Shown: piece after piece, positions 5,468 through 62,879 of the stretch
Layout of the letters: each line of letters opens with the position of its first letter
How positions within the stretch are numbered: position 1 is the first letter of the stretch
Source of the DNA: a virus
DNA length: 64,000 nucleotides
Strand: one strand, 5' to 3'
IMG/VR virus record: IMGVR_UViG_3300045988_180880
Span: 224,001 to 288,000 of that record
The notes under the pieces: generated by a model
The model's input: only the letters and a program-made list of their open reading frames with translations
Told to the model about the DNA's origin: nothing
Databases searched by the model: none
Program-made: the position numbers and the translations under genes

Positions 5468-5609
5468 TAATTTTTTGGATAGTAGTACTCCAGGGTTAGA
5501 AGAATTAGAAAGATTTAATAAGATCATGGAAGAAACGCAGAAAAATTTGAATATAAAATCAGGATCAAGAAATGATATAATTTATGAAAAAGAAGCTGAC
5601 AAAAAATAA
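5427..5609 (+). CDS. possible small ORF (start uncertain)
   Basis: 60-aa ORF overlapping both neighbours. Weak support. Confidence 0.3.
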   Translation: MIDLRKYAIFPESNNFLDSSTPGLEELERFNKIMEETQKNLNIKSGSRNDIIYEKEADKK

Positions 5610-42943: not shown

Positions 42944-43381
42944 TTATTTATTCAATTCTAATAATGATTTTTGAACAATATAATTATTTCTGGTTAGATC
43001 TTTTACATTATATAATAAATCTTCTAAAGGAATATCTATGAATTGTAAAGCTTTTGGATTAGATTCATAAGCATTATGTACTTCATATTTAGATTGTTTT
43101 TTATCAACAAAGTCATCATAACCCGAATATTCATCAAAGTTATTTCTATTAAGTAAGATAAGATTTTTAGTAAGCTTTTTACAAATACTTAATGGAAATT
43201 TAGCAAGAATTAATTCAGCGGTTGTAATTACTTTATCATCTCCTACTAGATTATCCCAAGATTTATTATAATCGAATAGATTTACATCTAATGAATTCTC
43301 TAGTCTAAAAGCTCCTTTATAGACTTTTATTAGTTTAGATACTTTTAGTGAATACTTAGATCGAACTACTTTAAATATCAT
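42944..43381 (-). CDS. hypothetical protein
   Basis: 145-aa ORF. Confidence 0.55.
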   Translation of the reverse strand: MIFKVVRSKYSLKVSKLIKVYKGAFRLENSLDVNLFDYNKSWDNLVGDDKVITTAELILAKFPLSICKKLTKNLILLNRNNFDEYSGYDDFVDKKQSKYEVHNAYESNPKALQFIDIPLEDLLYNVKDLTRNNYIVQKSLLELNK

Positions 43382-49388: not shown

Positions 49389-50690
49389 TTAAAAAGGTAA
49401 ATCATCTCCACCATTATTACCTCCGAAATTTGGTTTCTGGAAAGGTGCTTGTTGATTACCTTGTCCAAATCCTCCCCACTGTGGCTGTTGTCCACCACCG
49501 AATGGAGATCCTCCACCATTACCTGGATTTACAGGGCTGGCTGTTACGGGATCACTATGATACACGGGAGGAGTCTGAAAAACCTGATCGTTTTTACTCA
49601 GATCAACTTGAGGTGCAGAATTTCCACCTCCAGACAGAGAAGCTAACATCGGATCATTTGTCTGACGAAAACCACTTTTATCTGTCGGAACCTGTTTTGC
49701 AAGAACTTCATTATTAACTCTTGTAACAGCTTCTTTAAAATCTACACTTCCCTGAGATTTAGCGAGTCTGATGCTTGCTAAAATTTCTGACATATATTCA
49801 ATAGACTCTTTAATCAAGGTCGCATTGAATAAACGTTTCTGACCAACAGGAGTATCGTTATCTCTATTAGCCTGCCAAGACATAAATGATTGCAATGGAT
49901 CTGCAGCCAATTCCATATCTTCTTCTGAAATCTGAATTGACTTAAAGTTCTCATTACCAACTTCATGTGTGGCAGTAATAGCAAATCCGGCTGCTCCGTC
50001 TTTCTTCTTTCCGATACTAAACATCAAGAATCCAGAACGTCCTGTAGCATCACGATTATAAACTTCTGAAATCCAGCTATTATCTCCACCTTTCATCAAA
50101 GATTTTTCTTGAATATTATCTTCAACTACTGATGTAAACATTTTAGCTGTCGCAACGAACAATGCCGTAAAATTCTGACGACTAGGGTTACGATTTTCAT
50201 TCGGATCCCATTTATTAAGACAGAATGCATGGAAGATAGTATAATTCTTCAACCGGACTAAGTTTGTTGTTAATTCGTCGCGGTTATTCTTTGCATCCAG
50301 TTCTCGATAAAGTTCATCAAAGATCATATGCGCTTGTGATAATAATTCATCATCTGCGGCGGTCAATGAAGAAACTAATCTACCTGTCATATCTTTCATT
50401 ACATAAGCACTTTTCGGTAGGAGCTTAATCCACGCATTATAAGTGTTTTCAGTTCCATCCGCCGCCATGTTTTTACGAGGGATATTAATTTCACGAGTTC
50501 CGAATAAAGTAACAAACGGAAAGTCAGTTACTACACTATCCAACGGAAATACTTGATATCTACCAAAATTTCCTGGAAAGTTAAGATAAATTTTTTCTAA
50601 TGATCTGTTTTTCTGCTCAAAATTGTTTTCTTTTGCTTTTGGTGCTTGCGCTGCCAATTTACTCAAAAAATCATCTACTCGATTTCCCAT
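49389..50690 (-). CDS. single-stranded DNA-binding protein
   Basis: Gly/Gln/Pro-rich linker ending in the SSB-type acidic tip GGDDLPF. Sits in the replication/recombination neighbourhood. Confidence 0.6.
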   Translation of the reverse strand: MGNRVDDFLSKLAAQAPKAKENNFEQKNRSLEKIYLNFPGNFGRYQVFPLDSVVTDFPFVTLFGTREINIPRKNMAADGTENTYNAWIKLLPKSAYVMKDMTGRLVSSLTAADDELLSQAHMIFDELYRELDAKNNRDELTTNLVRLKNYTIFHAFCLNKWDPNENRNPSRQNFTALFVATAKMFTSVVEDNIQEKSLMKGGDNSWISEVYNRDATGRSGFLMFSIGKKKDGAAGFAITATHEVGNENFKSIQISEEDMELAADPLQSFMSWQANRDNDTPVGQKRLFNATLIKESIEYMSEILASIRLAKSQGSVDFKEAVTRVNNEVLAKQVPTDKSGFRQTNDPMLASLSGGGNSAPQVDLSKNDQVFQTPPVYHSDPVTASPVNPGNGGGSPFGGGQQPQWGGFGQGNQQAPFQKPNFGGNNGGDDLPF

Positions 50691-51513: not shown

Positions 51514-52212
51514 TTAATTAGAGTTTCGAATTGTATAATTATATTTACTATCTTTATTTGGCGTAATTCTTGTTATTTTGAATGTTTTAAGTTCTGAGGA
51601 TTTTCCACCTACTCTACTTAAATTTATAGCTCTTCCTTTCTTACCTATTCCTCTAATTACTTCTGCAACTCTATCTCCTGCAGCATCTTCTATTTTATCT
51701 CTTTGTTTCTTGAGATTATTTCCTAAACCGTAAACAGCTCCTATTCCAGCTCCAATTGCTGCATACTTTCCAACTTTTTTCACTGGTTTATATAATTTCT
51801 TTCCAGATTTAACTGTCTCGTTTAATTCCTCTAAGGGTTTATCTAAAAATTTCTTTTTATTATCTAGAAATTTTAAACCTATTTCCTTAGATTGATGTTC
51901 ATTTCTCTTAGTTTTCTCAATAAGATCTGATTTCTTTCCAGTAACTATATCTTTTACTGCCTGTTTAGCATTACTATATCTATGCTTCATTTTTAATTTA
52001 TCAGTATCTCGGTTACTTTTCTTTCGATATAATTTCTTTATAGAATCTTCTGTTACCTCTTTTTGAGGATTAAATGCTTTTTCATAGGATAATCTCCCAG
52101 AACCTGCTATCAAAGCACCCATTCCTGCTCCAACGGTTACATCAGAAGTTATATCAGATTTGCTTCTTTCTTGTTTTTCTTCTTTAGAAAATAATTTACG
52201 TCTTATGATCAT
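51514..52212 (-). CDS. Lys-rich glycine-zipper protein with shared N-terminal motif (MIIRRKLFS)
   Basis: GAGMGALIAGSG and AAIGAGIGAVYGLG segments. Its N-terminus belongs to the M-x-I-x-R-x-K-x-[YF]-S family. Confidence 0.6.
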   Translation of the reverse strand: MIIRRKLFSKEEKQERSKSDITSDVTVGAGMGALIAGSGRLSYEKAFNPQKEVTEDSIKKLYRKKSNRDTDKLKMKHRYSNAKQAVKDIVTGKKSDLIEKTKRNEHQSKEIGLKFLDNKKKFLDKPLEELNETVKSGKKLYKPVKKVGKYAAIGAGIGAVYGLGNNLKKQRDKIEDAAGDRVAEVIRGIGKKGRAINLSRVGGKSSELKTFKITRITPNKDSKYNYTIRNSN

Positions 52213-52733
52213 AATAAAATTCTATGTTTAATTTTTATATTTTCAAGTTCTTCTGTTTCAGGCCCATGTAAAAAGATATCCAACACTACACAATTACTTA
52301 TTTTATCTCCTAAAAGAGGATCCTTATAAATCATTGCACAGAGCTCTAAATCATTAAATAACTCATCATATCTTTTCCTATAGTTATCTAGATCTTTCAT
52401 AAGTTGTTCACCTCTTTTACTAGGATCTGAAACTAATTCCGTCATGATTATAGCATCATTTTTATCTCCCTTAATGAGATTCTTAAAATCTTCAATAATT
52501 TGATATTTTTCATATGAAGTAGAATATTTCTGAGTATCATGATTATCTGTAGAAATTAATTTTAAGAATTCATAATTACTTTCATTAAAATCTGATAAAT
52601 ACTCATTAAAGAATTTCTTTTCATATTTTGCCATCTCATTATTCCACTTTACTATCTCTGGATCTTTTCTTGATAAAGTATTCCGAGTAGCTTTAAAAAT
52701 AGCTGATTTAATTTTATCAAACATAATTAACAC
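52209..52733 (-). CDS. hypothetical protein
   Basis: 174-aa ORF. Confidence 0.55.
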   Translation of the reverse strand: MLIMFDKIKSAIFKATRNTLSRKDPEIVKWNNEMAKYEKKFFNEYLSDFNESNYEFLKLISTDNHDTQKYSTSYEKYQIIEDFKNLIKGDKNDAIIMTELVSDPSKRGEQLMKDLDNYRKRYDELFNDLELCAMIYKDPLLGDKISNCVVLDIFLHGPETEELENIKIKHRILL

Positions 52734-54766
52734 ACCTCCTTTCTACTTATTATATTATATATCTTTACCACCTTCTTAACCCCATCTATCTCTACTCTGG
52801 CTGAAGACTCCTTTACATTAAAGTAATTTTCTAAGTCTTTTGCCTTAGGTGTAGCATCGTAATTAATGGACTTATATAACACTTCAAGTCTAGATTTTAT
52901 ATCAGATAATGTTATTTTATCTCCTACTTTAAATTCTGAATATATATTAGACTCTAGAAGTTCTTGACTAAATGTTACTACTCCTAACTCCTTTTCTATA
53001 TACGTTTTATTATATCCAAGAGCTCTAAGCTTTTCGGGACCAAGTGCTAAGTAGTAAGATTTAATATTATCATGTTCTCCAATCTGATCTAATATTATAT
53101 TAGTCATAGTATCATTAAAACTACATTCACAAAGATACTTAAGTTTAGATTTAAATGTTCCAAACTTTTGATATTGCTCTAAAAATCTAGACACTTCTTG
53201 ATTAATAATATCATCTGGAGATAAAGTACTATATATAGTACTAAATACAGTAAATCTATCTTTATAATCTATTTGTTGTATTCTAAAAGCTCTAATCTCA
53301 TTTACTAATACTAAATTATTAAGTACAGGTATCAAAGTTCCACTCTGATGTTCGTTTACTGCTATATAATCATCTTTATAATTCTGTGTTCTAGCTAATG
53401 TTTGGTATCTTTCAGCTACAGTTAATCTTGCTTTTTCCGGAGTAGAATTATAAGAAAGAAGTAAATCATTAGTAGCTTTCTTTTTTCTTTCTATTTCTCT
53501 ATCAAACTCTTCTTGACTAACTTTTCTATAGTCACAAGTAGATCTGTAATAGAAAATGGCTTCATTCTTCCAAGGATTTTCAAAGAGTCTTTGTCTTCCG
53601 AGAATTTGAGGTAAATCTTCACTAATATCAACAGCTAAAGAGTCTATATTAGAATCCGAAAATATAAATGATCTAGCACAGGTAGAATAAAAATCTGCTC
53701 CTAGGTAAACAGTCCTCGTACAAAATGTAAACATTTTAGGTTTAACTCCTTTTAATGGTACCTCTCCGATAGTAAATCTCTTTCCTAACTTCTTTTGTAT
53801 TCTTTTTAAATTTTCGGGAGTATCAGAACAAAGAATATTTACCTCTTCTGGTTGGAGATCACACTTCTTTATAATAGATGTAATATGATTAACAGAGTTT
53901 ACGTAGAATACAGCTTCATCCGATATTACTCTAGTAGGATATCCATTAACCATTCTAATAGCACTTTCAAAATTACCAGATTTATAAGAGTCTATTATCT
54001 CAGGTAATTTAGTTCCTACTGATTTCATTGTTAATACCTTAAGAGAAGGTTTTAATACTCTAGTAGGATCTTGCGAAGCCCAATCCATATTAATATATGG
54101 TAAACCATCAAATTCATCTAACATATTTAAGTATTCCTCTAACATGGGTGTAGCACTAACAAATAGAGCTGAATGAGATTGCTTAAGAATATTTAAAAAT
54201 TCTAATTCTGTATTAGACTTAAACTTAGAATCATGTAGGATAGTTTGAAATTCATCTATTACAGTATAAAAGGATTGAAATATTCCTAAACTTTCTAGAA
54301 TATCTTTTACAATTCTATAAGAATCATATGTTACAAGAATTTTACAAGGTTTATCTCCCAGGTATTTTCTTTCATTTAGATAATCTTTTATTTCATTCAT
54401 TAGTCTATTATAAACTGTATCTTTTCCATGTACTACTTCTTTAAGAGTATCTATAAATACCTGAGATCTAGTTTTATCTACTTTATTTAAATCTTTATCA
54501 ACCGTTAGTTCCTTTTCTAATTCATTTACTACTAAATAAACATCTCTACCGTGTTGATCCTTTTTATTTTCTAATAACATCTTTCTTGGAGAACAGAGTA
54601 TTACATTCTCTGGTCCTCTAAGACAATATTCAGTAAATCCACATCCAGGTAATTGTTTGTTTATAATACACTTTACTGGGAATTTATAAAATCTAAAGTT
54701 TGTTCCTAATTCTGATATAAATCTTATTCCTCTAGGAACAATGTAATCATTTAATTTTTTTATCAT
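52727..54766 (-). CDS. SF2-helicase-like protein, paralogue 2
   Basis: Same motif set as 13100..15124 (LPGCGFTE, IDEFQ, SATP, QILGRQRL). Runs of more than 60 identical residues. About 90 percent nt identity by eye over roughly 130 nt near the 3' end. Confidence 0.6.
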   Translation of the reverse strand: MIKKLNDYIVPRGIRFISELGTNFRFYKFPVKCIINKQLPGCGFTEYCLRGPENVILCSPRKMLLENKKDQHGRDVYLVVNELEKELTVDKDLNKVDKTRSQVFIDTLKEVVHGKDTVYNRLMNEIKDYLNERKYLGDKPCKILVTYDSYRIVKDILESLGIFQSFYTVIDEFQTILHDSKFKSNTELEFLNILKQSHSALFVSATPMLEEYLNMLDEFDGLPYINMDWASQDPTRVLKPSLKVLTMKSVGTKLPEIIDSYKSGNFESAIRMVNGYPTRVISDEAVFYVNSVNHITSIIKKCDLQPEEVNILCSDTPENLKRIQKKLGKRFTIGEVPLKGVKPKMFTFCTRTVYLGADFYSTCARSFIFSDSNIDSLAVDISEDLPQILGRQRLFENPWKNEAIFYYRSTCDYRKVSQEEFDREIERKKKATNDLLLSYNSTPEKARLTVAERYQTLARTQNYKDDYIAVNEHQSGTLIPVLNNLVLVNEIRAFRIQQIDYKDRFTVFSTIYSTLSPDDIINQEVSRFLEQYQKFGTFKSKLKYLCECSFNDTMTNIILDQIGEHDNIKSYYLALGPEKLRALGYNKTYIEKELGVVTFSQELLESNIYSEFKVGDKITLSDIKSRLEVLYKSINYDATPKAKDLENYFNVKESSARVEIDGVKKVVKIYNIISRKEVC

Positions 54767-55507
54767 ATTAATTATATTTTAATTTTTTTATTATCTAATT
54801 ATTATAAATTCTTTTAATACAGAATCCAGTTACATAAAAGTGAAGACATAGGAGTCTCCCTTTTTCATTAATTAGAGTTTGAAGTTATTAGAAGAGCAAA
54901 ATGTAGATTTAAATTCAGATCAATTTGGGAAATAGTAATATAATATAATATATAATAAAAAAGTATACATTTAGTATTTAGATTAGATTCGCCTCCTTGG
55001 AGAGGCGAAAATCAATAATATAAAATCTTTATAAATATCTTCATTTTCTGAGTTTATTTTCTATATATCTTATTCAATGTTTCTTTTCTAAGACACCCCT
55101 AGCGGTAGCGATAAGGGGTGTAATATAAGGGAAGCTCCTGTGTCTTCATAAATAAGTTACCGAATTTTTATCAATTTTGAAGATAAAAAATAAAAGTGGG
55201 TTATTTTGGCTCATTTTAGGGTAAAAAGTAGTAAAAAACATCAAAAATAACCCACCTTTTGAGGGTTAAATTTAATATAAGCCTTATACATGAAATATAA
55301 GGAGAATCTGTGTCCTTCCCTCCTTTCCAAACGTGGTAATTTTGTTTTTCATATCCATATATTACTAATAGCGATTAGTTTTCTACTAAGTAAGTTCTTT
55401 TTCATAGTTGTTAATAATTTGTTTATTTCTCACATATAAATGGACACAGATTCTTCCTTTTATACTAAGAAATCGATATTATATTTTTTAAGATAATAAT
55501 TGTTTTC

Positions 55508-55592
55508 AGGGATTAGGTTCGGCGCTAAAGTTGCTGCGGAGATGGGTTAAGTAGGTTACTTAATTTTGTATCCCGGGACTTAGCTCCGACCT
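55508..55592 (+). promoter_or_regulatory. structured GC-rich leader with a terminator-like helix upstream of 55629
   Basis: CAGGGAT (55508-14) pairs with ATCCCGG (55571-77). AGGTTCGGCGCTAAAGT (55515-31) pairs with GACTTAGCTCCGACCT (55577-92), followed by CTTCTTTTT. The two helices cross each other. Confidence 0.4.
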
Positions 55593-55628
55593 CTTCTTTT
55601 TAGTTCTTTGTAAAAATACTATGTTCAT

Positions 55629-56093
55629 ATGATAATAAAGAGAAAAACAAAAAGTGTCTCCGATCTGTTCTATATATCATCAAGACCAGACTTAGATGGA
55701 GAATATATAAAACCGAAAATTAATTTGTACCCAGATGTAGGATCAGCACTTTCAGGAATATCAGCAGTTCCGGGAGAGGATACGAACATAGAAGGAGCTA
55801 CTTATTATATATACAAGCCGCTAATGGGAAGAGCCGATTCACTAGTAAAACCTGGAATAATAGAATCTCCGAAGGTATTAGTTCTCCCTGATGAATATTG
55901 GTATCTACAAGAACTCCGGCTCAGATTTATAGCGGCAGTTAAAGTCTTGGGGAGAGAAAAACTTATTGGAACTTATAGAACTGGAACTAGACAAACTCCA
56001 TCTAGAGTATATTCTTGGAGTTGGGAAGAAATTTTAGGGAAATATCAGAAGAAAGGTAAGTTAATAGAGACTGATAAAACAAAGAAAACGTGA
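55629..56093 (+). CDS. hypothetical protein with shared N-terminal motif (MIIKRKTKS)
   Basis: 154-aa ORF. Confidence 0.6.
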   Translation: MIIKRKTKSVSDLFYISSRPDLDGEYIKPKINLYPDVGSALSGISAVPGEDTNIEGATYYIYKPLMGRADSLVKPGIIESPKVLVLPDEYWYLQELRLRFIAAVKVLGREKLIGTYRTGTRQTPSRVYSWSWEEILGKYQKKGKLIETDKTKKT

Positions 56094-56162
56094 ATAATTT
56101 ATTTTCTAATATTTTTAAGAAGAGGGAAAAATACTGGGAAACTATAAACAAATTAAATCAAT

Positions 56163-56675
56163 ATGAAAATACTACGAAATAAAACATATTCTGATTCTGA
56201 CAATGAAACTCCAAAGAAAGTCGGAGAAGCTATCGGAACTGCACTAGTCGGAACAGCTGGAACTGTAGGAGCAACAGACTTAATAAAACGTGGGGCTAAG
56301 AAGTATATAACCAGTCAGGAATCAAAGAAAGCAAAAAAAGCATTTAAAGAAGGTATTAAGAAACTTGATTCAACCAGGAAAGCTAATAATTTTAAAGCAG
56401 AAGTAGCTCGTGGTGAAACTAATTCAGGAAGCGCTTTAGATCTAATTTTCCACAAAAGAAAAGTCAAGAAAGCAGATCAAGTATATAAAGCAGCTACCTC
56501 TAAAAATAATGAAGCCTATAAATCAGGTGTTAAAGCTCTTAAGAAAACTTTAATATCTAATAAAGATGCAAATATCGCCAAAAGAACAGGAAGAGTTGGA
56601 AAAATAGCTACGACTGCTGGTTTAATTGGAACAGGTATAGCAGCTGGAATGAAACTTAGAAAGAAAGATAAATAA
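56163..56675 (+). CDS. Lys-rich glycine-zipper protein with shared N-terminal motif (MKILRNKTYS)
   Basis: AIGTALVGTAGTVGA and TTAGLIGTGIAAGM segments. Confidence 0.6.
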   Translation: MKILRNKTYSDSDNETPKKVGEAIGTALVGTAGTVGATDLIKRGAKKYITSQESKKAKKAFKEGIKKLDSTRKANNFKAEVARGETNSGSALDLIFHKRKVKKADQVYKAATSKNNEAYKSGVKALKKTLISNKDANIAKRTGRVGKIATTAGLIGTGIAAGMKLRKKDK

Positions 56676-56681
56676 TAGGAA

Positions 56682-56770
56682 CGGAGATAGTAACCTATAA
56701 TGGAATAGGGACTGCCTGCTAAGCAGATCGATCGTGTTTTACGATTAGAGGTCGGAACTCTACATCTCCG
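56682..56770 (+). ncRNA. tRNA-like five-helix element (possible degenerate class-II tRNA, anticodon-loop-like CUGCUAA = GCU/Ser)
   Basis: A closing stem CGGAGAT/ATCTCCG encloses four hairpins at 56694-56709, 56712-56726, 56731-56745 and 56746-56762. The first loop has a GG. Spacing and the T-loop (GUCGGAA) are non-canonical. Confidence 0.35.
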
Positions 56771-56847
56771 CATTATAAAGAATAAAAATATAATCTATAG
56801 AGTTATTGGTTTAGCTCTATAGAACGACTTAGTGATTATTAGTTAAT

Positions 56848-56919
56848 TTCCCCTTAGTTCAGCGGATAGAACCTGGGATTTCTAATCCCATAACGTGTGT
56901 TCGATTCACACAGGGGAAA
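56848..56919 (+). tRNA. tRNA-Arg (anticodon TCT)
   Basis: Hand-folded cloverleaf. Acceptor TTCCCCT/AGGGGAA, D stem GTTC/GAAC, anticodon arm TGGGA-TTTCTAA-TCCCA, T arm GTGTG-TTCGATT-CACAC. Confidence 0.85.
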
Positions 56920-56970
56920 CAAATAAATATAAATTACAACTAAATTTAACTAATAAAAACTAAATTAATC

Positions 56971-57135
56971 ATGACAACAATTTTTAAGAAAGTAATCTTT
57001 AACCCTCTTAAGAGAGCGGTTAAGTGGTATTTTACTCAGTCTGCTAAAACAGGAAATTATATCTGTATGACTGGAACTTTTCCTCAAGAGTACTATGAAA
57101 TGATGTATGAAAAGAGGAAAGATCAACAAAAGTAA
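56971..57135 (+). CDS. possible small ORF (54 aa)
   Basis: ATG ORF MTTIFKKVIFNPLKRAVKWY... between two tRNAs. Preferred over the low-complexity antisense ORF 56965..57255. Confidence 0.35.
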   Translation: MTTIFKKVIFNPLKRAVKWYFTQSAKTGNYICMTGTFPQEYYEMMYEKRKDQQK

Positions 57136-57219
57136 AAGACAGTAGAAATTTATGGGATATAGGAAATTCCTATATACCCTTCGTTGACTAGGAAGAAAAT
57201 AATTAATAAAAAAATATAT

Positions 57220-57291
57220 CGCAGGATGAAAGAAATGGTATCTGACAAGTTTCATAAGCTTGGGTTGTTCGTTCGAATCGAGCTCCTGCTA
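57220..57291 (+). tRNA. tRNA with CAT anticodon (Met, or Ile2 if lysidine-modified)
   Basis: Anticodon arm CAAGT-TTCATAA-GCTTG, T arm GTTCG-TTCGAAT-CGAGC, 6-bp acceptor with a C1-U72 mismatch. The D arm is imperfect. Confidence 0.65.
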
Positions 57292-57431
57292 CATACATAC
57301 TAACGATGTGATATCGTAAGTTCTTTATTGTATTTATAAAAATATAGAAGAGAGATTTAGTAAGACTCTCTTCTATTAATAAAAAAAAAAGAACTTTAAT
57401 TGATATTACGGGAAGTAGTAAATTTAATTAT

Positions 57432-58160
57432 ATGAATAAGTACAATAAAGATGAATTAGAGAGATTAATTTTTAAAGAAAATTTATCTTATAAAGAAATT
57501 GGCAAAAAATATGGAGTATCTGGAAATACTATTAGAAAGAATGCAAAAAAGTTAGGAATAGTGTTACCTAAGAGAAGAAATATAAATCCTAATGAAACTT
57601 TTAATAAAGGAAAACAGATTCATATAGCTAACAAAAAACAAAATTCTAATAATAGTAAATTAGATCTCATATCTGATAATGATTTTATTGAAATTATCAA
57701 GACAAAGGATAATTGGAAAGATATATTAGTTTCACTTGGATATAATAAACATGGATCTAAATTTATTAGGGATAAAATAAGAAAAAGATGTTCGAATTTG
57801 GGAATAAATTTAAATCTTAAACAAAATCAACTAGATACTGTACCAATTTTATCTGTAACTAAAGGAGATTTATTTAAAAAACGTTCTAATTGGCAGAACG
57901 CTAGATCTAATATTCAAAATTCAGCAAGAAAAATATTTTTTAAGAATTGTCTTGATCCTAAATGTATAGTTTGTGGATATACTAATCATGTGGAAGTAGC
58001 ACATATAAAGGCAGTTAGTAATTTTAGTGAGGATTCATTAATATCAGAAATTAACGATATTTCTAATTTAATAGGTTTATGTCCTAATCATCATTGGGAG
58101 TATGATAATGGATTATTAGATATAAGTAAATACATAAATCATGAAAATAATAAGAAATAA
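57432..58160 (+). CDS. free-standing HNH homing endonuclease
   Basis: CIVCGY...HVEVAHIKAV...LCPNHHWEYDNG. The N-terminal HTH region is paralogous to 59388..60251. Confidence 0.8.
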   Translation: MNKYNKDELERLIFKENLSYKEIGKKYGVSGNTIRKNAKKLGIVLPKRRNINPNETFNKGKQIHIANKKQNSNNSKLDLISDNDFIEIIKTKDNWKDILVSLGYNKHGSKFIRDKIRKRCSNLGINLNLKQNQLDTVPILSVTKGDLFKKRSNWQNARSNIQNSARKIFFKNCLDPKCIVCGYTNHVEVAHIKAVSNFSEDSLISEINDISNLIGLCPNHHWEYDNGLLDISKYINHENNKK

Positions 58161-58497
58161 TATTATTCCTTTTCCAGGCTATAAAGCAGTAAATATCTTT
58201 GGAATTTTATTTGTAAGGAAGAATGCTAATATAAAACCAGAAGACTTAAATCATGAAGAAATACATACAGCACAAATGAAAGAAATGGCTTATATCGGAT
58301 TTTATGTATGGTATTTCTTGGAGTGGTTATTATGTCTCCTAGTTTCAGGATTTAGCTTTGGTTATGCTTATCATGATATTAGTCTTGAGGAAGAAGCACA
58401 CTTAAATGATAAAGACCTGGAATACTTAAAAACCAGAAAACATTATTCTTGGTGGTCCTATATAAAACTAGGAAGTTGGAAGAAAAATAAAAATTAA
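58141..58497 (+). CDS. HExxH-motif membrane protein
   Basis: NHEEIHTAQ motif followed by hydrophobic YIGFYVWYFLEWLLCLLVSGF. The N-terminus MKIIRNN resembles the shared motif. Confidence 0.5.
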   Translation: MKIIRNNIIPFPGYKAVNIFGILFVRKNANIKPEDLNHEEIHTAQMKEMAYIGFYVWYFLEWLLCLLVSGFSFGYAYHDISLEEEAHLNDKDLEYLKTRKHYSWWSYIKLGSWKKNKN

Positions 58498-58518
58498 CCA
58501 TATATACATAAAAAGATT

Positions 58519-58833
58519 ATGATTATACTTAGAAATAAGACCTATTCGCATGAAGAAGAAATTGCGAATATTGCGGCAGCTCCTGGAAGTCCAGAGTATA
58601 GCCATGAAAGAGCCGAAATAGAAAAGAAACCGGCTCAAGAAGCATCAGCAGTTCAAGAAGGTTATGAAAAAGCATCTCAGGAAATTGATAAAACAGTAGA
58701 AGAAGTAGAAATAGTTCCTGAAGCAGCTGAAGAAGCAATCGAAACAGAAGCACGTGAAGCTGGAGATTCTAACCTAGACTCTAGAAATGATGCATTAAAA
58801 ACTCTTAATGATTTCTTAGGTAATATTCATTAA
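58519..58833 (+). CDS. acidic protein with shared N-terminal motif (MIILRNKTYS)
   Basis: 104-aa ORF. Confidence 0.6.
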   Translation: MIILRNKTYSHEEEIANIAAAPGSPEYSHERAEIEKKPAQEASAVQEGYEKASQEIDKTVEEVEIVPEAAEEAIETEAREAGDSNLDSRNDALKTLNDFLGNIH

Positions 58834-58835
58834 TT

Positions 58836-59054
58836 ATGATTATCCTCAGGCAAAAGAATTATTCCGGCCGAGAAAAAGTACCTCAGGCTATAGCAGAGAA
58901 GGCACGAAAATCTGGAGTAGTTCAAAAAGATTCAAATGGTGCCTGGAGAATTATTAGCCTGAAAACTTCTCCGGCCGAATATTGGGATGCACATTATGAT
59001 ACCCGTGAAGATGCTGAAAAAGCTCTAGCCGCTTATCATGCAAATAAACATTAA
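58836..59054 (+). CDS. small protein with shared N-terminal motif (MIILRQKNYS)
   Basis: 72-aa ORF, 2 nt after the upstream stop. Confidence 0.6.
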   Translation: MIILRQKNYSGREKVPQAIAEKARKSGVVQKDSNGAWRIISLKTSPAEYWDAHYDTREDAEKALAAYHANKH

Positions 59055-59168
59055 GAGATTAATTTTAGAAGCGATGAAAATCGGATATTTTGAAAATTTT
59101 TACACTAGTACTTTTATCTCAGAATAAAGGAAATTGAGTAGTTATAGTGTTAGGTTTTTAACGCTTTT

Positions 59169-59251
59169 ACGGGAATGTTGGAATCGGTAGACAAGTAACT
59201 CTTAGAAAGTTATGCTAATTTAGCATGAGGGTTCGAGACCCTCTTCCCGTA
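59169..59251 (+). tRNA. tRNA-Leu (anticodon TAG), class II
   Basis: Acceptor ACGGGAA/TTCCCGT, D arm TTG-GAATCGGTAGA-CAA, anticodon arm TAACT-CTTAGAA-AGTTA, variable arm TGCTAA/TTAGCA, T arm GAGGG-TTCGAGA-CCCTC. Confidence 0.85.
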
Positions 59252-59387
59252 CGATAAGTTAACGATGTGAATCGATTCCTTATTAATTCATTTATATAAA
59301 ATATAGAGAGCTCGACGGGGCTCTCTTTAAGTAGAATTAATAAGATGTTGTTTATGATTCATGGGATGTAACTTAGATTTTATATAA

Positions 59388-60251
59388 ATGAATGAAAGTA
59401 AATTAAGTAATGTAACAAAAGAAGAATTAGAAAAACTAATCTTTGGAGAAAAATTATCCTATGAAGAAATAGGTAGGAGATATGAAGTTTCTGGAAGTGC
59501 TATTAAAAAGAAGGCTAAAAAATTAGGTATAGAACTTCCTAAGAAAAGAGATATAAATTCTAATGAAACTTTTAATAAAGGATACTCTTTTAAGTATAAT
59601 AAGAAAGATTTAGAGAAGTATTTAGGTGAAGGAAAGAGTTATAAAGAGATTGGAAATATTTATGGAGTATCTTCATCATCTATATATAGGGCAGTTAAAA
59701 GTTTTGGATTATCACCTAAGAAAAAATCTCCTAAGAAAAAAGAGTCAAAAAATTTGAATAAACCTAAAATTATAATAAATTCTGTAGATGATAGTGTTTT
59801 TTCAGATTATGTAAAGGATAGTTTATCAATAGCAGAAGTCGCTAGATCAATTGGAATAGATAATAATAAAATTAATACTAGCGTTTATAGAGAAATTCAT
59901 AAAAGAATCGATTCTTTAAAGTTAGATACATCTCATTTTACAGGAGGTGCATGGAATGTAGGAGATAGATTTAGAAAAATAGATAAAGGATTTCCATTAA
60001 GTGAAGTTTTAGTAAAAAACTCATCATATAAATGTACTAATTCTTTAAGGAAAAAGCTATTTAATGAAGGTGTAAAAGAACGAAAGTGTGAATGTTGCGG
60101 TATAACTGAATGGAATGGAAAGCCTGCACCATTACAACTTCATCATATAGATGGAGATAATACTAATAATTCTTTAGAAAATCTTCAAATACTTTGTCCT
60201 AATTGTCATGCTCAAACAGATAATTATTGTAGTAAAAATAAAAACGTCTAA
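59388..60251 (+). CDS. free-standing HNH homing endonuclease
   Basis: CECCG...LQLHHIDGDNTNNSLENLQILCPNCH. Confidence 0.85.
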   Translation: MNESKLSNVTKEELEKLIFGEKLSYEEIGRRYEVSGSAIKKKAKKLGIELPKKRDINSNETFNKGYSFKYNKKDLEKYLGEGKSYKEIGNIYGVSSSSIYRAVKSFGLSPKKKSPKKKESKNLNKPKIIINSVDDSVFSDYVKDSLSIAEVARSIGIDNNKINTSVYREIHKRIDSLKLDTSHFTGGAWNVGDRFRKIDKGFPLSEVLVKNSSYKCTNSLRKKLFNEGVKERKCECCGITEWNGKPAPLQLHHIDGDNTNNSLENLQILCPNCHAQTDNYCSKNKNV

Positions 60252-60335
60252 TATCTATACTAACCTCTTTTCCTCTTAATAATTCTCTCTAAACAAGGGG
60301 GAGGGGTAAAATAATTAACACTTTAAACAATTATT

Positions 60336-61148
60336 ATGTACATAAGAAGAAAAGTATTCTCACTATTACAAGACGGTGAGACAGGAGAAGAGAAGTATTT
60401 TTCTACGACCGATGTAACTTTGGATAATCTTGAAGAAAGAATTTTTAGTATTTCAATTCCAACTGAAGAAGAATTAGAACAAAGAGAATTCGGTGCTAGA
60501 CAGAGAAAACAGAATAGAAAACTAGCTAGATCTATTCACAATGCCGAGATGCAAGCAAATAAAGCAGCTAAGGCACAAGAAAAAGCAGCTAAAATAGTTT
60601 CTAATCCAGCTAATTTAGTTGATGAGAAGAAAATGGAAGAAGCTCAGAAACTTACTAAGAAAGCACAAAAAGCAGTTGAGTCTTCTAATCGTAATGCAGG
60701 TCAAGCTTCTCAACAAGTAAAGAATATCTCTAAAACTAGAAAGTCAGTTGCGACAAATCCGGGAGGTCTTGAAATTAAAAATCAAGGTGCAGGAGATATA
60801 ACTGTTAAGAAAGAAGGTGGTAATGTAACTGCTCATAAAATTGCTTCTAAGAAAAGTGGTCAGACAACAACTACTGTAAGAACAACGTCAACTAAGCCTG
60901 ATGTTGTAGTTGATAAGATGACATCCAAAGGTTCTAAGAAAGTTTCTACAGAGGCAGTAAAGAAATCCGCTGAGAAAACTCAAAAAGTTGCAGAAGTAGC
61001 TCAAAAAACAACAAAAGACTCAAAGAAGATTCTGAATGGGGCTAAAAAATTAATGAACACAAAAGCTGGTAAAATAGCTGGAGGAGTTGCTTTAGCTAGT
61101 GGTGCGATGATCGGGGCTAAAAAGTTATATGATCATAAAAAGAAATAA
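60336..61148 (+). CDS. Lys/Ala-rich protein with C-terminal glycine zipper and shared N-terminal motif (MYIRRKVFS)
   Basis: 270-aa ORF with KIAGGVALASGAMIGAKK at the C-terminus. Confidence 0.6.
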   Translation: MYIRRKVFSLLQDGETGEEKYFSTTDVTLDNLEERIFSISIPTEEELEQREFGARQRKQNRKLARSIHNAEMQANKAAKAQEKAAKIVSNPANLVDEKKMEEAQKLTKKAQKAVESSNRNAGQASQQVKNISKTRKSVATNPGGLEIKNQGAGDITVKKEGGNVTAHKIASKKSGQTTTTVRTTSTKPDVVVDKMTSKGSKKVSTEAVKKSAEKTQKVAEVAQKTTKDSKKILNGAKKLMNTKAGKIAGGVALASGAMIGAKKLYDHKKK

Positions 61149-61215
61149 AAAAGATAATCTATAGAGGTAGTGTAATCAATCTCCTCTATAGAACTTAATA
61201 TAAATATTATAAAAT

Positions 61216-61659
61216 ATGAAATTTAATAAAACTCTTGAAGCTGTAAATATTATGGTTATGGCTTCTTATCCGGCCGCTAGATTCTATGAAGCGCAAGGTA
61301 TACTAATTGAAGAAAATAATAGTTTTATCCCTGAAGTTTCTGGAATGGTAATTGTTTATTCATTACCTCTTGGAAAAACGCTTCTTGTAAATGTTGCGGC
61401 CGAGTCGGAAGAAGCCTATGAATTTAAACTAATCAATGAAAACTGGCTTGAAGATAGATCTATAACTCCTTATGTAGGTATGACTCTAGAAGATGCTTTT
61501 CAAGAATTAGTTAAAGCAGAAAAGATTATTAAATCTAGAAATGTAGTTCTCAGACATCCATTACATCCATCTTATACTCGTCCTGTTTATATATTTGGTG
61601 ATGTTCGGCGAGGAGGTAATAGTGTTGATGTAATGACTGGAGAAATAAGAGAAGAATAA
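61216..61659 (+). CDS. hypothetical protein
   Basis: 147-aa ORF. Confidence 0.55.
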   Translation: MKFNKTLEAVNIMVMASYPAARFYEAQGILIEENNSFIPEVSGMVIVYSLPLGKTLLVNVAAESEEAYEFKLINENWLEDRSITPYVGMTLEDAFQELVKAEKIIKSRNVVLRHPLHPSYTRPVYIFGDVRRGGNSVDVMTGEIREE

Positions 61660-61690
61660 AAAGATTTGCTTTAGATGATTTAATAATATT

Positions 61691-62149
61691 ATGATGAAAG
61701 TTAAAAGATTTTCTCAAACTCAACCAGATATAGAGTGGCATAAAAACAATATAAATCCAAACTCAGGTAGCAATCTGGAAGATGGAAGTACTCTTTATAA
61801 AGCAAAATCTGGAGATTATCTTTATTTGTATAAAGATGGTGAATGGGTTATTATGAATGGTGTTAATAAATTTATGCAGGATTCTAAATTATATCAAATT
61901 TCAAAATTCGATAAAAACATTCATAATAAGATTGGAGCCGCAGGAGCAGTTATTGGTGGTTTTGTTGGGAGTTTGCCTGGATTAGCAATGGGTAATTTAA
62001 AAACAGCTGCTACAGGGGCTGTGATTGGATCAACTATATCTGGATTATATAATAGAAATAAAGCAAAGAAACGTGCTGAAAATATAGTAAAGGATTACGA
62101 GTCTAAGTATGGTAAGAATGCTTATACTACATTTATGAAAAAGAAGTAA
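61691..62149 (+). CDS. glycine-zipper protein with related N-terminus (MMKVKRFS)
   Basis: IGAAGAVIGGFVGSLPGLAMGNLKTAATGAVIGSTISG. Confidence 0.6.
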   Translation: MMKVKRFSQTQPDIEWHKNNINPNSGSNLEDGSTLYKAKSGDYLYLYKDGEWVIMNGVNKFMQDSKLYQISKFDKNIHNKIGAAGAVIGGFVGSLPGLAMGNLKTAATGAVIGSTISGLYNRNKAKKRAENIVKDYESKYGKNAYTTFMKKK

Positions 62150-62252
62150 ACTATCTTTAATTTTAAATTACTTTTACTATAATTGAATACCTATTCCATT
62201 TTAAGGATGTAGTAAGGAATGATATTCAGTTTATTATATATTTCTAATAATA

Positions 62253-62360
62253 AAAAAAATGAGATACACTATTCTCACGAACTATGTATCTCTTGGCAAG
62301 TTACTACAAAAATTAATGTAGCAAGTTTAATCCTCATAAAAAATGAGAATTAATTTTTTA
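62253..62360 (-). ncRNA. sRNA-like unit 1 (promoter-like motif to intrinsic terminator)
   Basis: On the - strand, AAGCCTTATATATG (62364-62377) is followed by hairpin CTACA/TGTAG and then terminator GAGATACA...TGTATCTC (62261-62292) with a T-run. Confidence 0.4.
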
Positions 62361-62537
62361 AATCATATATAAGGCTTTGAAGTGATAAAAATAATACTGT
62401 CTTATTTTCACAAACTGTACTGCCTTTTACGACAAATAATAATAATAAAATTACCTTACATAGGTAATTAGTATAAGTTCCAAGTTTTATTGTAGTAAAA
62501 AACTTATACTGATTTATTCTACTACATACCTTAATGA

Positions 62538-62625
62538 TAAAAAATGAGATACACTATTCTCACGAACCATGTATCTCTGCGTAGCAAATTTAATCAACAC
62601 AGATTGTGAAGATTAAATTCTTATA
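62538..62625 (-). ncRNA. sRNA-like unit 2 (tandem paralogue of unit 1)
   Basis: Same promoter-like motif (62630-62644) and a near-identical terminator hairpin (62546-62577). The internal 9-bp hairpin is AATTTAATC/GATTAAATT. Confidence 0.4.
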
Positions 62626-62663
62626 TTAACATATATAAGGCTTTGAAGTCTTATTAAAAATGT

Positions 62664-62735
62664 GGTCCTATCGTCTATCGGTTAGGACGCGAGATTTTCA
62701 TTCTCGAAAGAGGAGTTCGATTCTCCTTAGGACTA
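62664..62735 (+). tRNA. tRNA-Glu (anticodon TTC)
   Basis: Acceptor GGTCCTA/TAGGACT (G1-U72 wobble), D arm GTCT-ATCGGTTA-GGAC, anticodon arm CGAGA-TTTTCAT-TCTCG, T arm AGGAG-TTCGATT-CTCCT. Confidence 0.85.
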
Positions 62736-62879
62736 CAAAAGTCAACGATGAGATATCGCAAAGACTTATTTAGACATGTTAATAGTGAAAAGGATAGAAT
62801 TAGCTACTCTATCCTCTCACTTTAAATCTAAGTAAGGTTACGTAATAATTGATATCTCGGGAAGTGATAATTAAATAAC

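What the first reader, a model, noticed from the sequence alone, without database searches (positions are those of the whole stretch)
51514..62149. At least seven otherwise dissimilar proteins share an N-terminal decapeptide M-[IK]-I-[LIKR]-R-[NKQ]-K-x-[YF]-S
- The N-termini are MIIRRKLFSK (51514..52212, -), MIIKRKTKSV (55629), MKILRNKTYS (56163), MIILRNKTYS (58519), MIILRQKNYS (58836), MYIRRKVFSL (60336) and MMKVKRFSQT (61691).
- MKIIRNNIIP (58141) is a weaker match.
- Codons differ between copies (CTT/CTC/CTA for Leu, AGA/AGG/CGA/CGT for Arg). Conservation therefore acts on the peptide, not the DNA.
- An acidic patch usually follows within about 15 residues.
- Several members are Lys-rich with glycine-zipper segments.
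- The genes cluster next to the portal-like gene.
- This resembles a shared targeting or propeptide signal. As I recall, the capsid targeting sequence of the T4 internal proteins, removed by the prohead protease after Glu, is a precedent.
Basis: partly seen in the sequence, partly recalled or inferred. Interest (0 to 1): 0.65.

Follow-up and report, generated by a model that had tools for sequence, protein, structure and literature searches.

The report
Shared head-protein leader in gut jumbo phage
A nine-to-ten-residue N-terminal tag shared by unrelated small proteins of a huge Bacteroides gut phage is most likely the mark of proteins that a T4-like capsid protease recognises and that are loaded into the phage head, using a sequence unlike any described head-targeting or cleavage signal.

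Summary
Six window genes start with M-x(1-3)-[RK]-x-K-x-[FY]-S, against 0.06 expected. All six lie at 51.5-62.2 kb, and BLASTP finds no other similarity between them. Conservation is on the peptide, not the DNA.

The window belongs to a ~375-kb, 29% GC phage that lacks Shine-Dalgarno sites. It is very probably a "Jug" jumbo gut phage.

- It occurs in at least 15 protein families.
- It starts up to 14 of 25 genes in a conserved module.
- That module encodes a protease whose model best matches T4 gp21.
- The motif also recurs 17-20 times inside an acidic scaffold-like protein and twice in the N-terminal 63 residues of the probable major capsid protein.
- It occurs 4-5 times in the protease's disordered linker, and at the junctions of fused proteins.

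Best reading (about 0.6): this is a prohead-core targeting and maturation-cleavage signal, analogous to the T4 capsid targeting sequence but with aromatic-Ser where T4 has Glu. The window genes would then be internal-protein-like cargo. Packaging and cleavage are inferred, not shown.

The neighbouring 679-aa gene is helicase-like, not a portal.

The parts
51514..52212 (-). Gene for a 232-aa Lys-rich (18% K, pI 10.1) protein with two glycine-zipper segments. The leader MIIRRKLFS is encoded at 52186-52212.
   Evidence: Paralogues with MIIKRKLFS, MVIKRKLFS or MKIKRKLYS lie downstream of each helicase-like paralogue in related genomes. In fused homologues the same module follows an internal ..IMRRKLFS.. 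junction.
55629..56093 (+). Gene for a 154-aa protein that starts MIIKRKTKSV (55629-55658). It is a partial member: it has the MIIxRK start but no [FY]-S.
   Evidence: Of the 38 homologous representatives whose sequences were read, about 30 start with M, two hydrophobic or basic residues, x, then R/K. Longer homologues are fusions in which this domain is joined to other modules through a motif site such as KEKEFG, EQKEFG, MRRKLFS or VIKRFS.
56163..56675 (+). Gene for a 170-aa Lys-rich (19% K, pI 10.3) protein with two glycine zippers. The leader MKILRNKTYS is encoded at 56163-56192.
   Evidence: It is conserved in 9-10 related loci.
58519..58833 (+). Gene for a 104-aa acidic protein (24% D+E, pI 4.4). 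The leader MIILRNKTYS is encoded at 58519-58548.
58836..59054 (+). Gene for a 72-aa basic protein. The leader MIILRQKNYS is encoded at 58836-58865.
   Evidence: An identical decapeptide starts an unrelated 177-aa protein in the head-module locus of a diverged relative (L164 20176).
60336..61148 (+). Gene for a 270-aa Lys-rich protein with a C-terminal glycine zipper. It has an extended leader (60336-60494) holding four motif copies: RRKVFS, EEKYFS, EERIFS and QREFG.
   Evidence: The N-terminal 50-90 residues match proteins encoded in the head-module loci of relatives, whose remaining sequence was not aligned by BLASTP (L155, L158, L160; E down to 1e-11).
61691..62149 (+). Gene for a 152-aa protein with glycine zippers. 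The short leader MMKVKRFS is encoded at 61691-61714.
   Evidence: Compare MMIVKRFSQTK, MILKRFSSTK and MIIKRFSATK on small head-module proteins.
58141..58497 (+). Small HExxH zincin protease (118 aa). It is context only and not a motif member.
   Evidence: It matches phrog_15610 at E = 4e-37. It is 48% identical to crAssphage gp56 from residue 1 onward.
52727..54766 (-). It is context only.
   Evidence: It is 67% identical to the window gene at 13100-15124. There are 5-6 paralogues per related genome. The distant GenBank match is annotated 'DEAD-like helicase'.
56848..62736 (+). tRNA genes and two HNH homing-endonuclease genes interspersed with the motif genes, forming a plastic region. The tRNAs are Arg-TCT 56848-56920, Met-CAT 57220-57292, Leu-TAG 59169-59252 and Glu-TTC 62664-62736. 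The HNH genes are at 57432-58160 and 59388-60251.

Best explanation
The decapeptide is the N-terminal form of a short linear motif: two hydrophobic residues, [RK], x, K, x, [FY], [ST], with the aromatic residue at position 8 or 9 of the protein.

In this clade of ~375-kb Bacteroides/Phocaeicola gut phages, the motif marks proteins handled by a T4-type prohead assembly and maturation system.

Proposed mechanism:
1. The leader directs the protein into the scaffolding core of the assembling prohead.
2. The gp21-like prohead protease then cuts at or next to the [FY]-[ST] site.
3. The same protease cuts the scaffold into small pieces and removes the N-terminal segment of the major capsid protein.
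4. It also processes its own linker and separates the modules of fused proteins.

On this reading the window genes at 51.5-62.2 kb are counterparts of the T4 internal proteins. They would be mostly basic, Lys-rich proteins packed with the DNA and probably ejected into the host.

Shown:
- The motif, its statistics and its peptide-level conservation.
- Its concentration in the protease module.
- The gp21-like fold of the protease.
- The motif's positions in scaffold-like, capsid-like, protease and fusion proteins.

Inferred: targeting, cleavage, the exact scissile bond, and packaging and ejection of the window proteins.
For: 1. The motif is non-random and specific to N-termini.
   - Window: 6 observed against 0.06 expected.
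   - 1.43 Mb of related loci: 107 of 110 six-frame hits are the first Met of an ORF of at least 50 aa.
2. Selection acts on the peptide, not the DNA.
3. The motif is specific to this clade.
   - The MIIKRKLFS codon pattern gave at least 58 stretches in IMG/VR, 56 of them on contigs that also appear in the clade's other scans. The two from other samples encode clade-type proteins.
   - It gave only 15 scattered matches in 596 Gb of cellular genomes, 13 of them in ORFs of 12-44 aa.
   - crAssphage has none.
4. It concentrates in one conserved module.
   - The relaxed motif starts 14 of 25, 11 of 27 and 11 of 24 genes in L155, L164 and L158, against about 0.7-1.1 expected.
   - By eye it starts about 20 of 27 genes in a relative whose protease is only 37% identical.
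5. That module encodes a protease of the T4 gp21 type.
   - His51 and Ser137 are invariant across 55 homologues.
   - The AlphaFold2 model has pLDDT 76.8.
   - The top PDB match is T4 gp21, 5jbl_A, with probability 0.99 and TM 0.49.
   - 24 BFVD matches at E <= 1e-3 include proteins named T4 prohead protease, Peptidase U9, and prohead core scaffolding protein and protease.
   - The local sequence alignment places LGGLTH and AGxxPGVS opposite the LGELNH and AGWIPGVS stretches of gp21 (z = 3.5).
6. The motif recurs where T4 gp21 has its substrates (substrate list from PMC5694885).
   - A 715-785-aa protein with 27% D+E holds 17-20 FS sites in [KRE]-x-F-S-[DE] context.
   - The most conserved protein (482 aa) has invariant YAKMFS(40) and QKTFS(63). 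It shows weak gp23-like signals, IPNL and GIYY (z = 3.7).
   - The protease's predicted-disordered linker keeps 4-5 near-invariant K-x-F-[ST] sites in every subgroup checked.
   - FS dipeptides are 2.2-2.6 times over expectation in module loci, against 0.9 times in crAssphage.
7. In fused homologues of the 55629 protein, a motif site lies at the junction of the modules in nearly every case. Sometimes the downstream gene's Met is retained (..IMRRKLFS....DMKRRKLFS..).
8. The window proteins are mostly basic, with pI 9.5-10.3 against a window median of 6.5. This is as expected for DNA-associated internal proteins (PMC3012670).
Against: - There is no direct evidence that any of these proteins is in virions or is cut.
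- The motif has no Glu at a fixed position. T4-type proteases with known specificity cut after Glu, so a change of specificity has to be assumed.
- The identity of the 482-aa protein as major capsid protein rests on weak sequence signals. Its AlphaFold2 model failed (pLDDT 50.8) and its Foldseek matches were meaningless.
- Neither portal nor scaffold was identified by homology.
- Some motif carriers look like enzymes whose packaging is not obviously needed. One resembles a GNAT acetyltransferase; others are HExxH proteins or give a weak T5orf172 hint.
- The protease's own N-terminus varies (..KLFS..KILS..RCCS). It is probably a structural strand, not a site.
- The motif is also common next to helicase-like paralogues, far from the head module.
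Confidence: 0.6

Rival explanations
1. The motif is a docking motif only. It binds the scaffold, the capsid interior or the protease and so recruits proteins into the prohead, but it is not itself cut. Cleavage, if any, happens elsewhere, for example after a nearby Glu.
For: - The aromatic residue is at position 8 or 9 in 96 of 106 distinct N-terminal instances, so the free N-terminus may be part of what is recognised.
- Acidic residues are enriched at +4 and +5. Sites such as FS-K-E and YS-H-E resemble the [LIV]-x-E and S/A/G-x-E sites of known gp21-type proteases (PMC5694885).
- A multivalent scaffold with about 20 copies could bind the shell.
Against: - Conserved sites in the protease's own disordered linker are easier to explain as cut sites. 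So are the sites at the junctions of fused modules.
- No Glu lies at a constant distance from the motif.
Confidence: 0.17
2. The motif has a function unrelated to the virion. It could be an N-terminal degron or regulatory tag read by a host or phage AAA+ protease, or a tag that sets timing or localisation of host-takeover proteins.
For: - The window encodes an FtsH-like protein with AAA+ and Peptidase_M41 domains at 35166-37394.
- Many carriers lie outside the head module, next to helicase-like paralogues and tRNA genes.
- Some carriers look like enzymes.
Against: - It does not explain the concentration of the motif in the protease module.
- It does not explain the 17-20 internal copies in an acidic scaffold-like protein, or the invariant copies in the N-terminal 63 residues of the most conserved structural-module protein.
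- T4 internal-protein genes also lie outside the head gene cluster (my knowledge of the T4 map).
Confidence: 0.1
3. The motif is a secretion or membrane-insertion signal: a basic n-region followed later by glycine-zipper membrane segments, or a Tat-like RRKLFS.
For: - The N-terminus is basic.
- RRKLFS loosely resembles the twin-arginine consensus S/T-R-R-x-F-L-K (my knowledge).
- Several carriers have glycine-zipper hydrophobic segments.
Against: - No hydrophobic core follows the basic stretch. Charged residues follow directly.
- Most copies have a single Arg.
- Carriers include a strongly acidic soluble protein.
- Internal copies in the scaffold-like and capsid-like proteins make no sense for export.
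- The codon pattern is at chance level in cellular genomes.
Confidence: 0.03
4. The motif is an artefact. It could reflect A-rich codon bias at 5' gene ends in an organism without Shine-Dalgarno sites, or a repeated DNA element such as a promoter or gene-start cassette.
For: - Genes here lack Shine-Dalgarno sequences, and N-termini are rich in K, I, N and R.
Against: - Shuffling each N-terminus gives 0.05 expected against 6 observed.
- Identity at third codon positions and in upstream DNA is at background level.
- crAssphage, with the same GC and the same host phylum, has no hits.
- Internal copies occur in many different sequence contexts.
Confidence: 0.01

Closest known systems
T4 capsid targeting sequence (CTS) of the internal proteins IPI-III and Alt, processed by the prohead protease gp21
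   Same: - A short N-terminal sequence is the only thing shared by otherwise diverse small, often basic proteins.
- The genome encodes a gp21-fold protease.
- The recurring sites fall where gp21 has its substrates: scaffold, capsid-protein N-terminus and the protease itself.
- The carrier genes lie in a plastic region with tRNA and homing-endonuclease genes.
- T4 facts are taken from PMC3012670 and PMC5694885.
   Different: - There is no sequence similarity to the T4 CTS.
- The conserved core is [RK]-x-K-x-[FY]-[ST], not a [LI]-x-E site.
- There are far more carrier families (at least 15, and at least 23 genes in the third of one genome that I held).
- The motif also sits at fusion junctions.
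- Nothing has been shown experimentally.
Propeptides of phiKZ / 201phi2-1 / SPN3US giant-phage head proteins (cleavage motif A/S/G-x-E)
   Same: - They occur in jumbo phages with a gp21-related protease.
- Many head and ejection proteins are processed, with several sites per propeptide.
- The protease cuts its own C-terminal part.
- Conserved N-termini occur on diverged paralogues, such as SPN3US gp53 and gp54 (PMC5694885).
   Different: - Those propeptides are mostly longer than 100 residues and end in x-E.
- Here the leader is 8-10 residues with aromatic-Ser.
- No relation was detected outside the protease fold.
Encapsulin cargo-loading peptides
   Same: A short conserved terminal peptide directs unrelated cargo enzymes into an HK97-fold shell (my knowledge).
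   Different: - Those peptides are usually C-terminal and are not cleaved.
- They act in a bacterial nanocompartment, not a virus.
- The sequence is different.
Viral polyprotein processing sites
   Same: A short recurring site lies at the boundaries between functional modules in fused proteins.
   Different: Here most modules are separate genes and the site is then N-terminal. No polyprotein strategy is known for tailed-phage head cargo.

Membership tests
T4-type CTS / gp21-processed prohead core proteins | A short (10-20 aa) N-terminal sequence is shared by otherwise unrelated proteins | tested here: met
   There are 6 strict members in the window with no other BLASTP similarity. At least 15 families carry it in relatives.
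T4-type CTS / gp21-processed prohead core proteins | The leader ends in the gp21 site [LI]-x-E, or resembles the T4 CTS sequence | tested here: not met
   In 106 distinct instances the conserved positions are hydrophobic at -6 and -5, R/K at -4, K at -2, F/Y at 0 and S/T at +1. Glu is only enriched, at +4 to +6, and is not fixed.
T4-type CTS / gp21-processed prohead core proteins | The genome encodes a gp21-fold (Peptidase S77/U9) prohead protease | tested here: met
   The AlphaFold2 model has pLDDT 76.8. The top PDB match is 5jbl_A, T4 gp21. The named matches among the 24 BFVD hits at E <= 1e-3 are prohead or capsid-maturation proteases. His51 and Ser137 are invariant. Pfam and PDB sequence searches did not detect it.
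T4-type CTS / gp21-processed prohead core proteins | The same site recurs in the scaffold, the capsid-protein N-terminal segment and the protease itself | tested here: met
   The site recurs in all three at sequence level. The scaffold and capsid identities themselves are only probable.
T4-type CTS / gp21-processed prohead core proteins | The carriers are present in virions with the leader removed, and the leader is sufficient to package a foreign protein | not testable with these tools
   This needs virion proteomics or genetics. No isolate or proteome was found in the literature searches.
phiKZ/SPN3US-type giant-phage propeptides | The cleavage motif is A/S/G-x-E, and propeptides are mostly longer than 100 aa | tested here: not met
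   The leaders are 8-10 aa. S-x-E follows the motif in only some members, such as FSKE and YSHE.
Sec/Tat/lipoprotein signal peptides | A basic n-region is followed directly by a hydrophobic core of 7-15 residues (Tat: S/T-R-R-x-F-L-K) | tested here: not met
   Charged or polar residues follow the motif. Most copies have a single Arg. The pattern is at chance level in cellular genomes.
Small zincin protease, phrog_15610 / crAssphage gp56 (for 58141-58497 only) | Full-length similarity, including the HExxH motif | tested here: met
   PHROG E = 4e-37. It is 48% identical to gp56 over residues 1-114. Its N-terminus is therefore part of that family and not an instance of the leader.

The most novel reading that the evidence does not exclude
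Jug-type jumbo gut phages may use a gp21-fold protease whose specificity has moved from Glu to an aromatic-Ser site. The matching 8-10-residue leader would then serve as a universal loading-and-release tag for dozens of cargo families. These include Lys-rich glycine-zipper proteins, HExxH proteins and an acetyltransferase, and some are made as fused multi-module precursors that are cut apart inside the prohead. That would define a large injected-protein arsenal in one of the most abundant human gut phages. It would also give a portable tag for loading proteins into Bacteroides phage capsids.
Probability: 0.4. Interest if true: 0.78.

Novelty: new variant of a known kind. Interest (0 to 1): 0.64.

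Why it matters
According to the paper that describes them, Jug phages make up about 1% of reads in human gut metagenomes. Most of their roughly 500 genes have no annotation (PMC12880540). That paper does not mention the motif.

If the reading is right, one short sequence rule assigns a role to dozens of hypothetical proteins per genome: prohead core, cargo or ejected protein. It also predicts the mature ends of the capsid protein and the scaffold fragments.

It would document a new substrate specificity in the gp21 protease family. It would also offer a small tag for loading foreign proteins into phages of Bacteroides.

All of these predictions can be tested directly against virion or stool metaproteomes.

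Tried and rejected
**Homology and literature searches that gave nothing**
- Megablast of the region and tblastn of module proteins against GenBank phages gave no match.
- Pfam and PHROG scans of the motif proteins and of the module proteins gave almost nothing.
- My impressions of a YoeB-like and a T5orf172-like carrier got no support or only weak support. I do not rely on them.
- PDB sequence searches with profiles of the 482-aa, the 670-793-aa and the protease families gave nothing.
- The first homologue search for the protease, using the 150-aa fragment, found only 4 proteins.
- Cluster look-ups gave no informative names.
- The supplementary tables of the Jug paper are not held.

**Weak or failed structure and profile comparisons**
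- hhalign against T4 gp21 and gp23 gave only weak, locally sensible matches, at E about 0.04.
- hhalign of the 670-793-aa protein against the T4 portal gave nothing.
- The AlphaFold2 model of the 482-aa protein was poor (pLDDT 50.8), so its Foldseek matches are meaningless.

**Inconclusive**
- Looking for a shared promoter upstream of the motif genes was inconclusive in this AT-rich DNA.

**Ideas rejected**
- Composition or translation-start bias.
- A repeated DNA element.
- A signal recognised by the host.
- The 58141 protease as a member of the set.
- The 679-aa gene as a portal.

Full report
**1. The observation**

The pattern as literally written fits three proteins: MKILRNKTYS, MIILRNKTYS and MIILRQKNYS. 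The others fit after a register shift of one or two residues.

I therefore used the form M-x(1-3)-[RK]-x-K-x-[FYW]-S.
- A six-frame scan of the 64-kb window finds this form six times.
- Each hit is the first Met of an ORF of 72-270 aa, and all lie between 51.5 and 62.2 kb.
- Among 90 provisional genes the expected number is 0.06 from pooled N-terminal composition.
- It is 0.05 when residues 2-12 of each protein are shuffled. No run of 20,000 reached six.
- None of 275 internal Met positions match. The clustering has P = 1.5e-4.
- BLASTP without composition correction finds no similarity between the six proteins.

Conservation is on the peptide.
- Identity between copies is 0.78-0.90 at codon positions 1 and 2.
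- It is 0.20-0.67 at position 3 and 0.35-0.57 in the 40 nt upstream.
- The only DNA repeat is the 32-nt motif-coding stretch itself, at 78% identity.

Two listed members differ from the rest.
- MIIKRKTKSV (55629) is a partial member.
- MKIIRNNIIP (58141) belongs to a small zincin protease. Its N-terminus is conserved in crAssphage gp56, so it is not a member.

**2. What genome this is**

The window has 29% GC and essentially no Shine-Dalgarno sites. It carries NrdG, SbcC-like, CobS/CobT-like and FtsH-like genes, tRNAs and HNH endonucleases.

Relatives in IMG/VR are contigs of 230-378 kb. GenBank phages hold nothing similar.

Several features fit the 'Jug' jumbo gut phages of Bacteroides/Phocaeicola described in 2026 (PMC12880540):
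- genome size and GC content;
- the composition of the sequence, which points to a Bacteroidota host and fits the gut origin given for Jug phages;
- genes split by endonucleases;
- a fragmented prohead protease gene.

That paper does not contain the word 'N-terminal', so the motif is not described there. I could not confirm the assignment by sequence, because no Jug genome was available to the tools.

**3. The motif is much wider than the finding**
- In 1.43 Mb of 71 related loci the strict form occurs 110 times in six frames. Of these, 107 are the first Met of an ORF of at least 50 aa.
- Allowing the variants seen there gives at least 15 protein families that are unrelated after the leader. 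The variants are MII[KLRAV]R[KNQY].. followed after 0-8 residues by [KRQ]-x-[FY]-[STGN].
- In 106 distinct N-terminal instances the aromatic residue is at position 8 or 9 in 96. Positions -6 and -5 are hydrophobic, -4 is R/K and -2 is K. Positions +4 and +5 are enriched in D/E.
- One genome has at least 23 carrier genes in the 35% of it that I held.

The motif is specific to this clade.
- The codon pattern for MIIKRKLFS hit at least 58 stretches of IMG/VR. Fifty-six are on contigs that also appear in the clade's other scans.
- The two from other samples encode clade-type proteins.
- It gave only 15 scattered matches in 596 Gb of cellular genomes. Thirteen of those lie in ORFs of 12-44 aa.
- crAssphage has the same GC and the same host phylum, and has no strict hit.

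**4. Where the motif concentrates**

A stretch with higher GC is almost identical among the close relatives (L131), and diverged versions exist (L155, L158, L160, L164, L166). It holds a run of co-directional genes, most of which start with the motif.
- The relaxed motif starts 14 of 25, 11 of 27 and 11 of 24 genes in L155, L164 and L158. About 0.7-1.1 are expected.
- By eye it starts about 20 of 27 genes in L166, whose protease is only 37% identical.

Gene order in L164 is:
1. several small motif proteins;
2. a 431-aa protein;
3. a 214-297-aa protein with two to four tandem copies at its N-terminus, for example MERRKLFE-TRERRKLFS-..NIKLFS-..QRVFS;
4. a 715-785-aa protein with 27% D+E;
5. a 482-aa protein;
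6. about ten small motif proteins;
7. a 670-793-aa protein of unknown identity.

**5. The 431-aa protein is a gp21-type prohead protease**
- Profile libraries miss it.
- A family of 146 homologues with 35-98% identity has invariant Asp18, Ser20, His51, Arg54, Asp74 and Ser137.
- The AlphaFold2 model is good, with pLDDT 76.8. Residues 1-190 are confident and the linker at 195-219 and 249-277 is disordered.
- The best PDB match is the T4 capsid assembly protease gp21, 5jbl_A, with probability 0.99 and TM 0.49 on the target. It is ten-fold ahead of the next match.
- Twenty-four BFVD matches at E <= 1e-3 include proteins named T4 prohead protease, Peptidase U9, and prohead core scaffolding protein and protease of Tenacibaculum phage PTm1.
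- A local sequence alignment puts LGGLTH and AGxxPGVS opposite the LGELNH and AGWIPGVS stretches of gp21 (z = 3.5).
- hhalign, at E about 0.04, independently aligned the AG..PGVS stretch.

**6. The motif sits where such a protease has its substrates**

In T4, gp21 cuts the scaffold and core proteins into fragments. [quoted passage not shown] The 10-20-residue propeptides are the capsid targeting sequences (PMC5694885, PMC3012670).

Here the parallels are:
- The acidic 715-785-aa protein has 17-20 FS dipeptides, almost all as [KRE]-x-F-S-[DE].
- The 482-aa protein is the most conserved of the module, at 80-100% identity. It has invariant ..YAKMFS(40) and ..QKTFS(63) in its N-terminal segment.
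- That protein shows weak similarity to T4 gp23 at the IPNL and GIYY stretches (z = 3.7).
- The protease's disordered linker keeps four or five near-invariant K-x-F-[ST] sites in all eight family members inspected, drawn from different N-terminal subgroups. The sites are EKxFSE, VKVKxFSD, LKAKxFS and QKEFTQ.
- FS dipeptides occur at 2.2-2.6 times expectation in module loci. The ratio is 1.2 in the window and 0.9 in crAssphage.

The capsid identity is only probable. The structure model of the 482-aa protein failed.

**7. Fusion junctions**

The 154-aa window protein (55629) has 39 representative homologues.
- Of the 38 whose sequences I read, about 30 start with M, two hydrophobic or basic residues, x, then R/K.
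- The longer ones are fusions of this domain to other carrier modules, either Lys-rich glycine-zipper modules or HExxH modules.
- A regular expression for the domain end captured ten fusions. Eight were flagged automatically and the other two also have a site that straddles the boundary. By eye, the further fusions that the expression missed also show one.
- Examples are ..GKLKEKEFG-IVSD....LPEQKEFG....IMRRKLFS-VEEE....DMKRRKLFS-EKQ.. and ..MVIKRFS-EKK...
- So the sequence that starts a stand-alone gene marks the module boundary in a fused one. That is what is expected of a processing site.
- Likewise, the N-terminal 50-90 residues of the 60336 protein hold four copies of the motif. They recur on proteins encoded in the head-module loci of relatives, whose remaining sequence BLASTP did not align.

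**8. Interpretation**

The most economical reading is that the motif is the recognition element of the prohead assembly and maturation system. As an N-terminal leader it brings proteins into the scaffolding core, and the gp21-like protease then cuts at or beside [FY]-[ST].

The window genes are mostly basic, with pI 9.5-10.3 against a window median of 6.5. They lie in a tRNA and homing-endonuclease region. They would be counterparts of the T4 internal proteins.

Targeting, cleavage, the scissile bond and ejection are inferences.

The main alternative is a docking motif without cleavage, with cleavage perhaps at nearby Glu residues. Degron, export-signal and artefact readings fit the data poorly; see the rival explanations.

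**9. Comparison and novelty**

The system works like the T4 CTS/gp21 system and like giant-phage propeptide processing, but it fails the sequence criteria of both.
- There is no [LI]-x-E or A/S/G-x-E site.
- The leader is 8-10 residues.
- The conserved core is basic residues plus aromatic-Ser.

I therefore file it as a new variant of a known kind. It occurs in an abundant, uncultured phage group, and the predictions are testable on existing proteome data.

**10.

The 679-aa neighbour is helicase-like. It has 5-6 diverged paralogues per genome, and a carrier gene lies within 6 kb downstream in 47 of the 58 full-length loci examined. It is not a portal.

Noticed in passing
window 52727-54766 (-) and 13100-15124 (+); loci L001-L071: Each ~375-kb genome holds 5-6 diverged paralogues (62-96% aa identity) of this 679-aa DExQ helicase-like gene, spaced 50-110 kb apart. 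In 47 of 58 full-length loci a motif-bearing gene lies within 6 kb downstream. The reason for this repeated helicase-plus-carrier arrangement is unknown.
   Followed up: partly
window 35166-37394 (-): A 742-aa protein has AAA+ and ClpB-D2-small regions and a Peptidase_M41 (FtsH-type) domain (Pfam E = 3e-10). A phage-encoded FtsH-like protease is unusual.
   Followed up: no
L131 5013-5471, 5868-6266, 6468-6641 versus L164 5874-7169: In the window's own subclade the prohead protease gene is in three separate ORFs. In diverged relatives it is one 431-aa ORF. This fits the 'fragmented' remark in the Jug phage paper. An intron or a genuine split was not resolved.
   Followed up: partly
window 56784-56808 and 61148-61172: A 25-nt repeat, AAAAA[TG]ATAATCTATAGAG, lies just after the stop codons of two motif genes (56163-56675 and 60336-61148). 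The second copy is part of a hairpin, ctatagagg..cctctatag. It may be a terminator or a regulatory site.
   Followed up: no
window 58141-58497 (+); L168 (crAssphage gp56): The crAssphage homologue of the small zincin protease starts MRVIKTKHFPF. That resembles the motif more than the window copy MKIIRNNIIPF does. It is probably a coincidence of a basic beta-strand, since the crAssphage genome has no strict hit.
   Followed up: partly
window 51514-51650 (-); L044 13183: The C-terminal ~45 residues of the 232-aa window protein (GRAINLSRVGGKSSELKTFKITRITPNKDSKYNYTIRNSN) are shared with an otherwise different 252-aa carrier that starts MILLRYKYFNEG-type leader MIILRYKYFNEG. This points to shuffling of C-terminal modules as well.
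   Followed up: no
related loci (families F0, F1 and F3; P0280, P0284, P0305, P0308, P0309, P0312): Three carrier families hold an HExxH motif followed by a conserved E..NAS stretch. Pfam gives only a weak hint (Zn_peptidase_2, E = 0.025). They may be a new group of packaged metallopeptidases.
   Followed up: partly
window 42944-43381 (-), 7985-8239 (-), 5427-5609 (+): There are near-motif N-termini outside the cluster: MIFKVVRSKYS, MLTLRKVGIPSFEF and MIDLRKYAIF. It is unclear whether they are diverged members.
   Followed up: no
window 57220-57292 (+): ARAGORN calls a tRNA-Met(CAT) here, but Rfam does not report it at gathering threshold. The overlapping ORF 56965-57255 (-) looks spurious.
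   Followed up: no
window 26158-29743 (-): Two related ORFs, 27273-27776 and 28811-29743, are 28% identical over 158 aa. They sit among short gene fragments next to NrdG (25456-25947). This is consistent with the endonuclease-interrupted nrdD described for Jug phages.
   Followed up: no
window 49389-50690 (-): A 433-aa protein has a long G/Q/N-rich tail ending in ..DDLPF. This looks like a single-stranded-DNA-binding protein with the usual acidic tip. Pfam gave no match.
   Followed up: no
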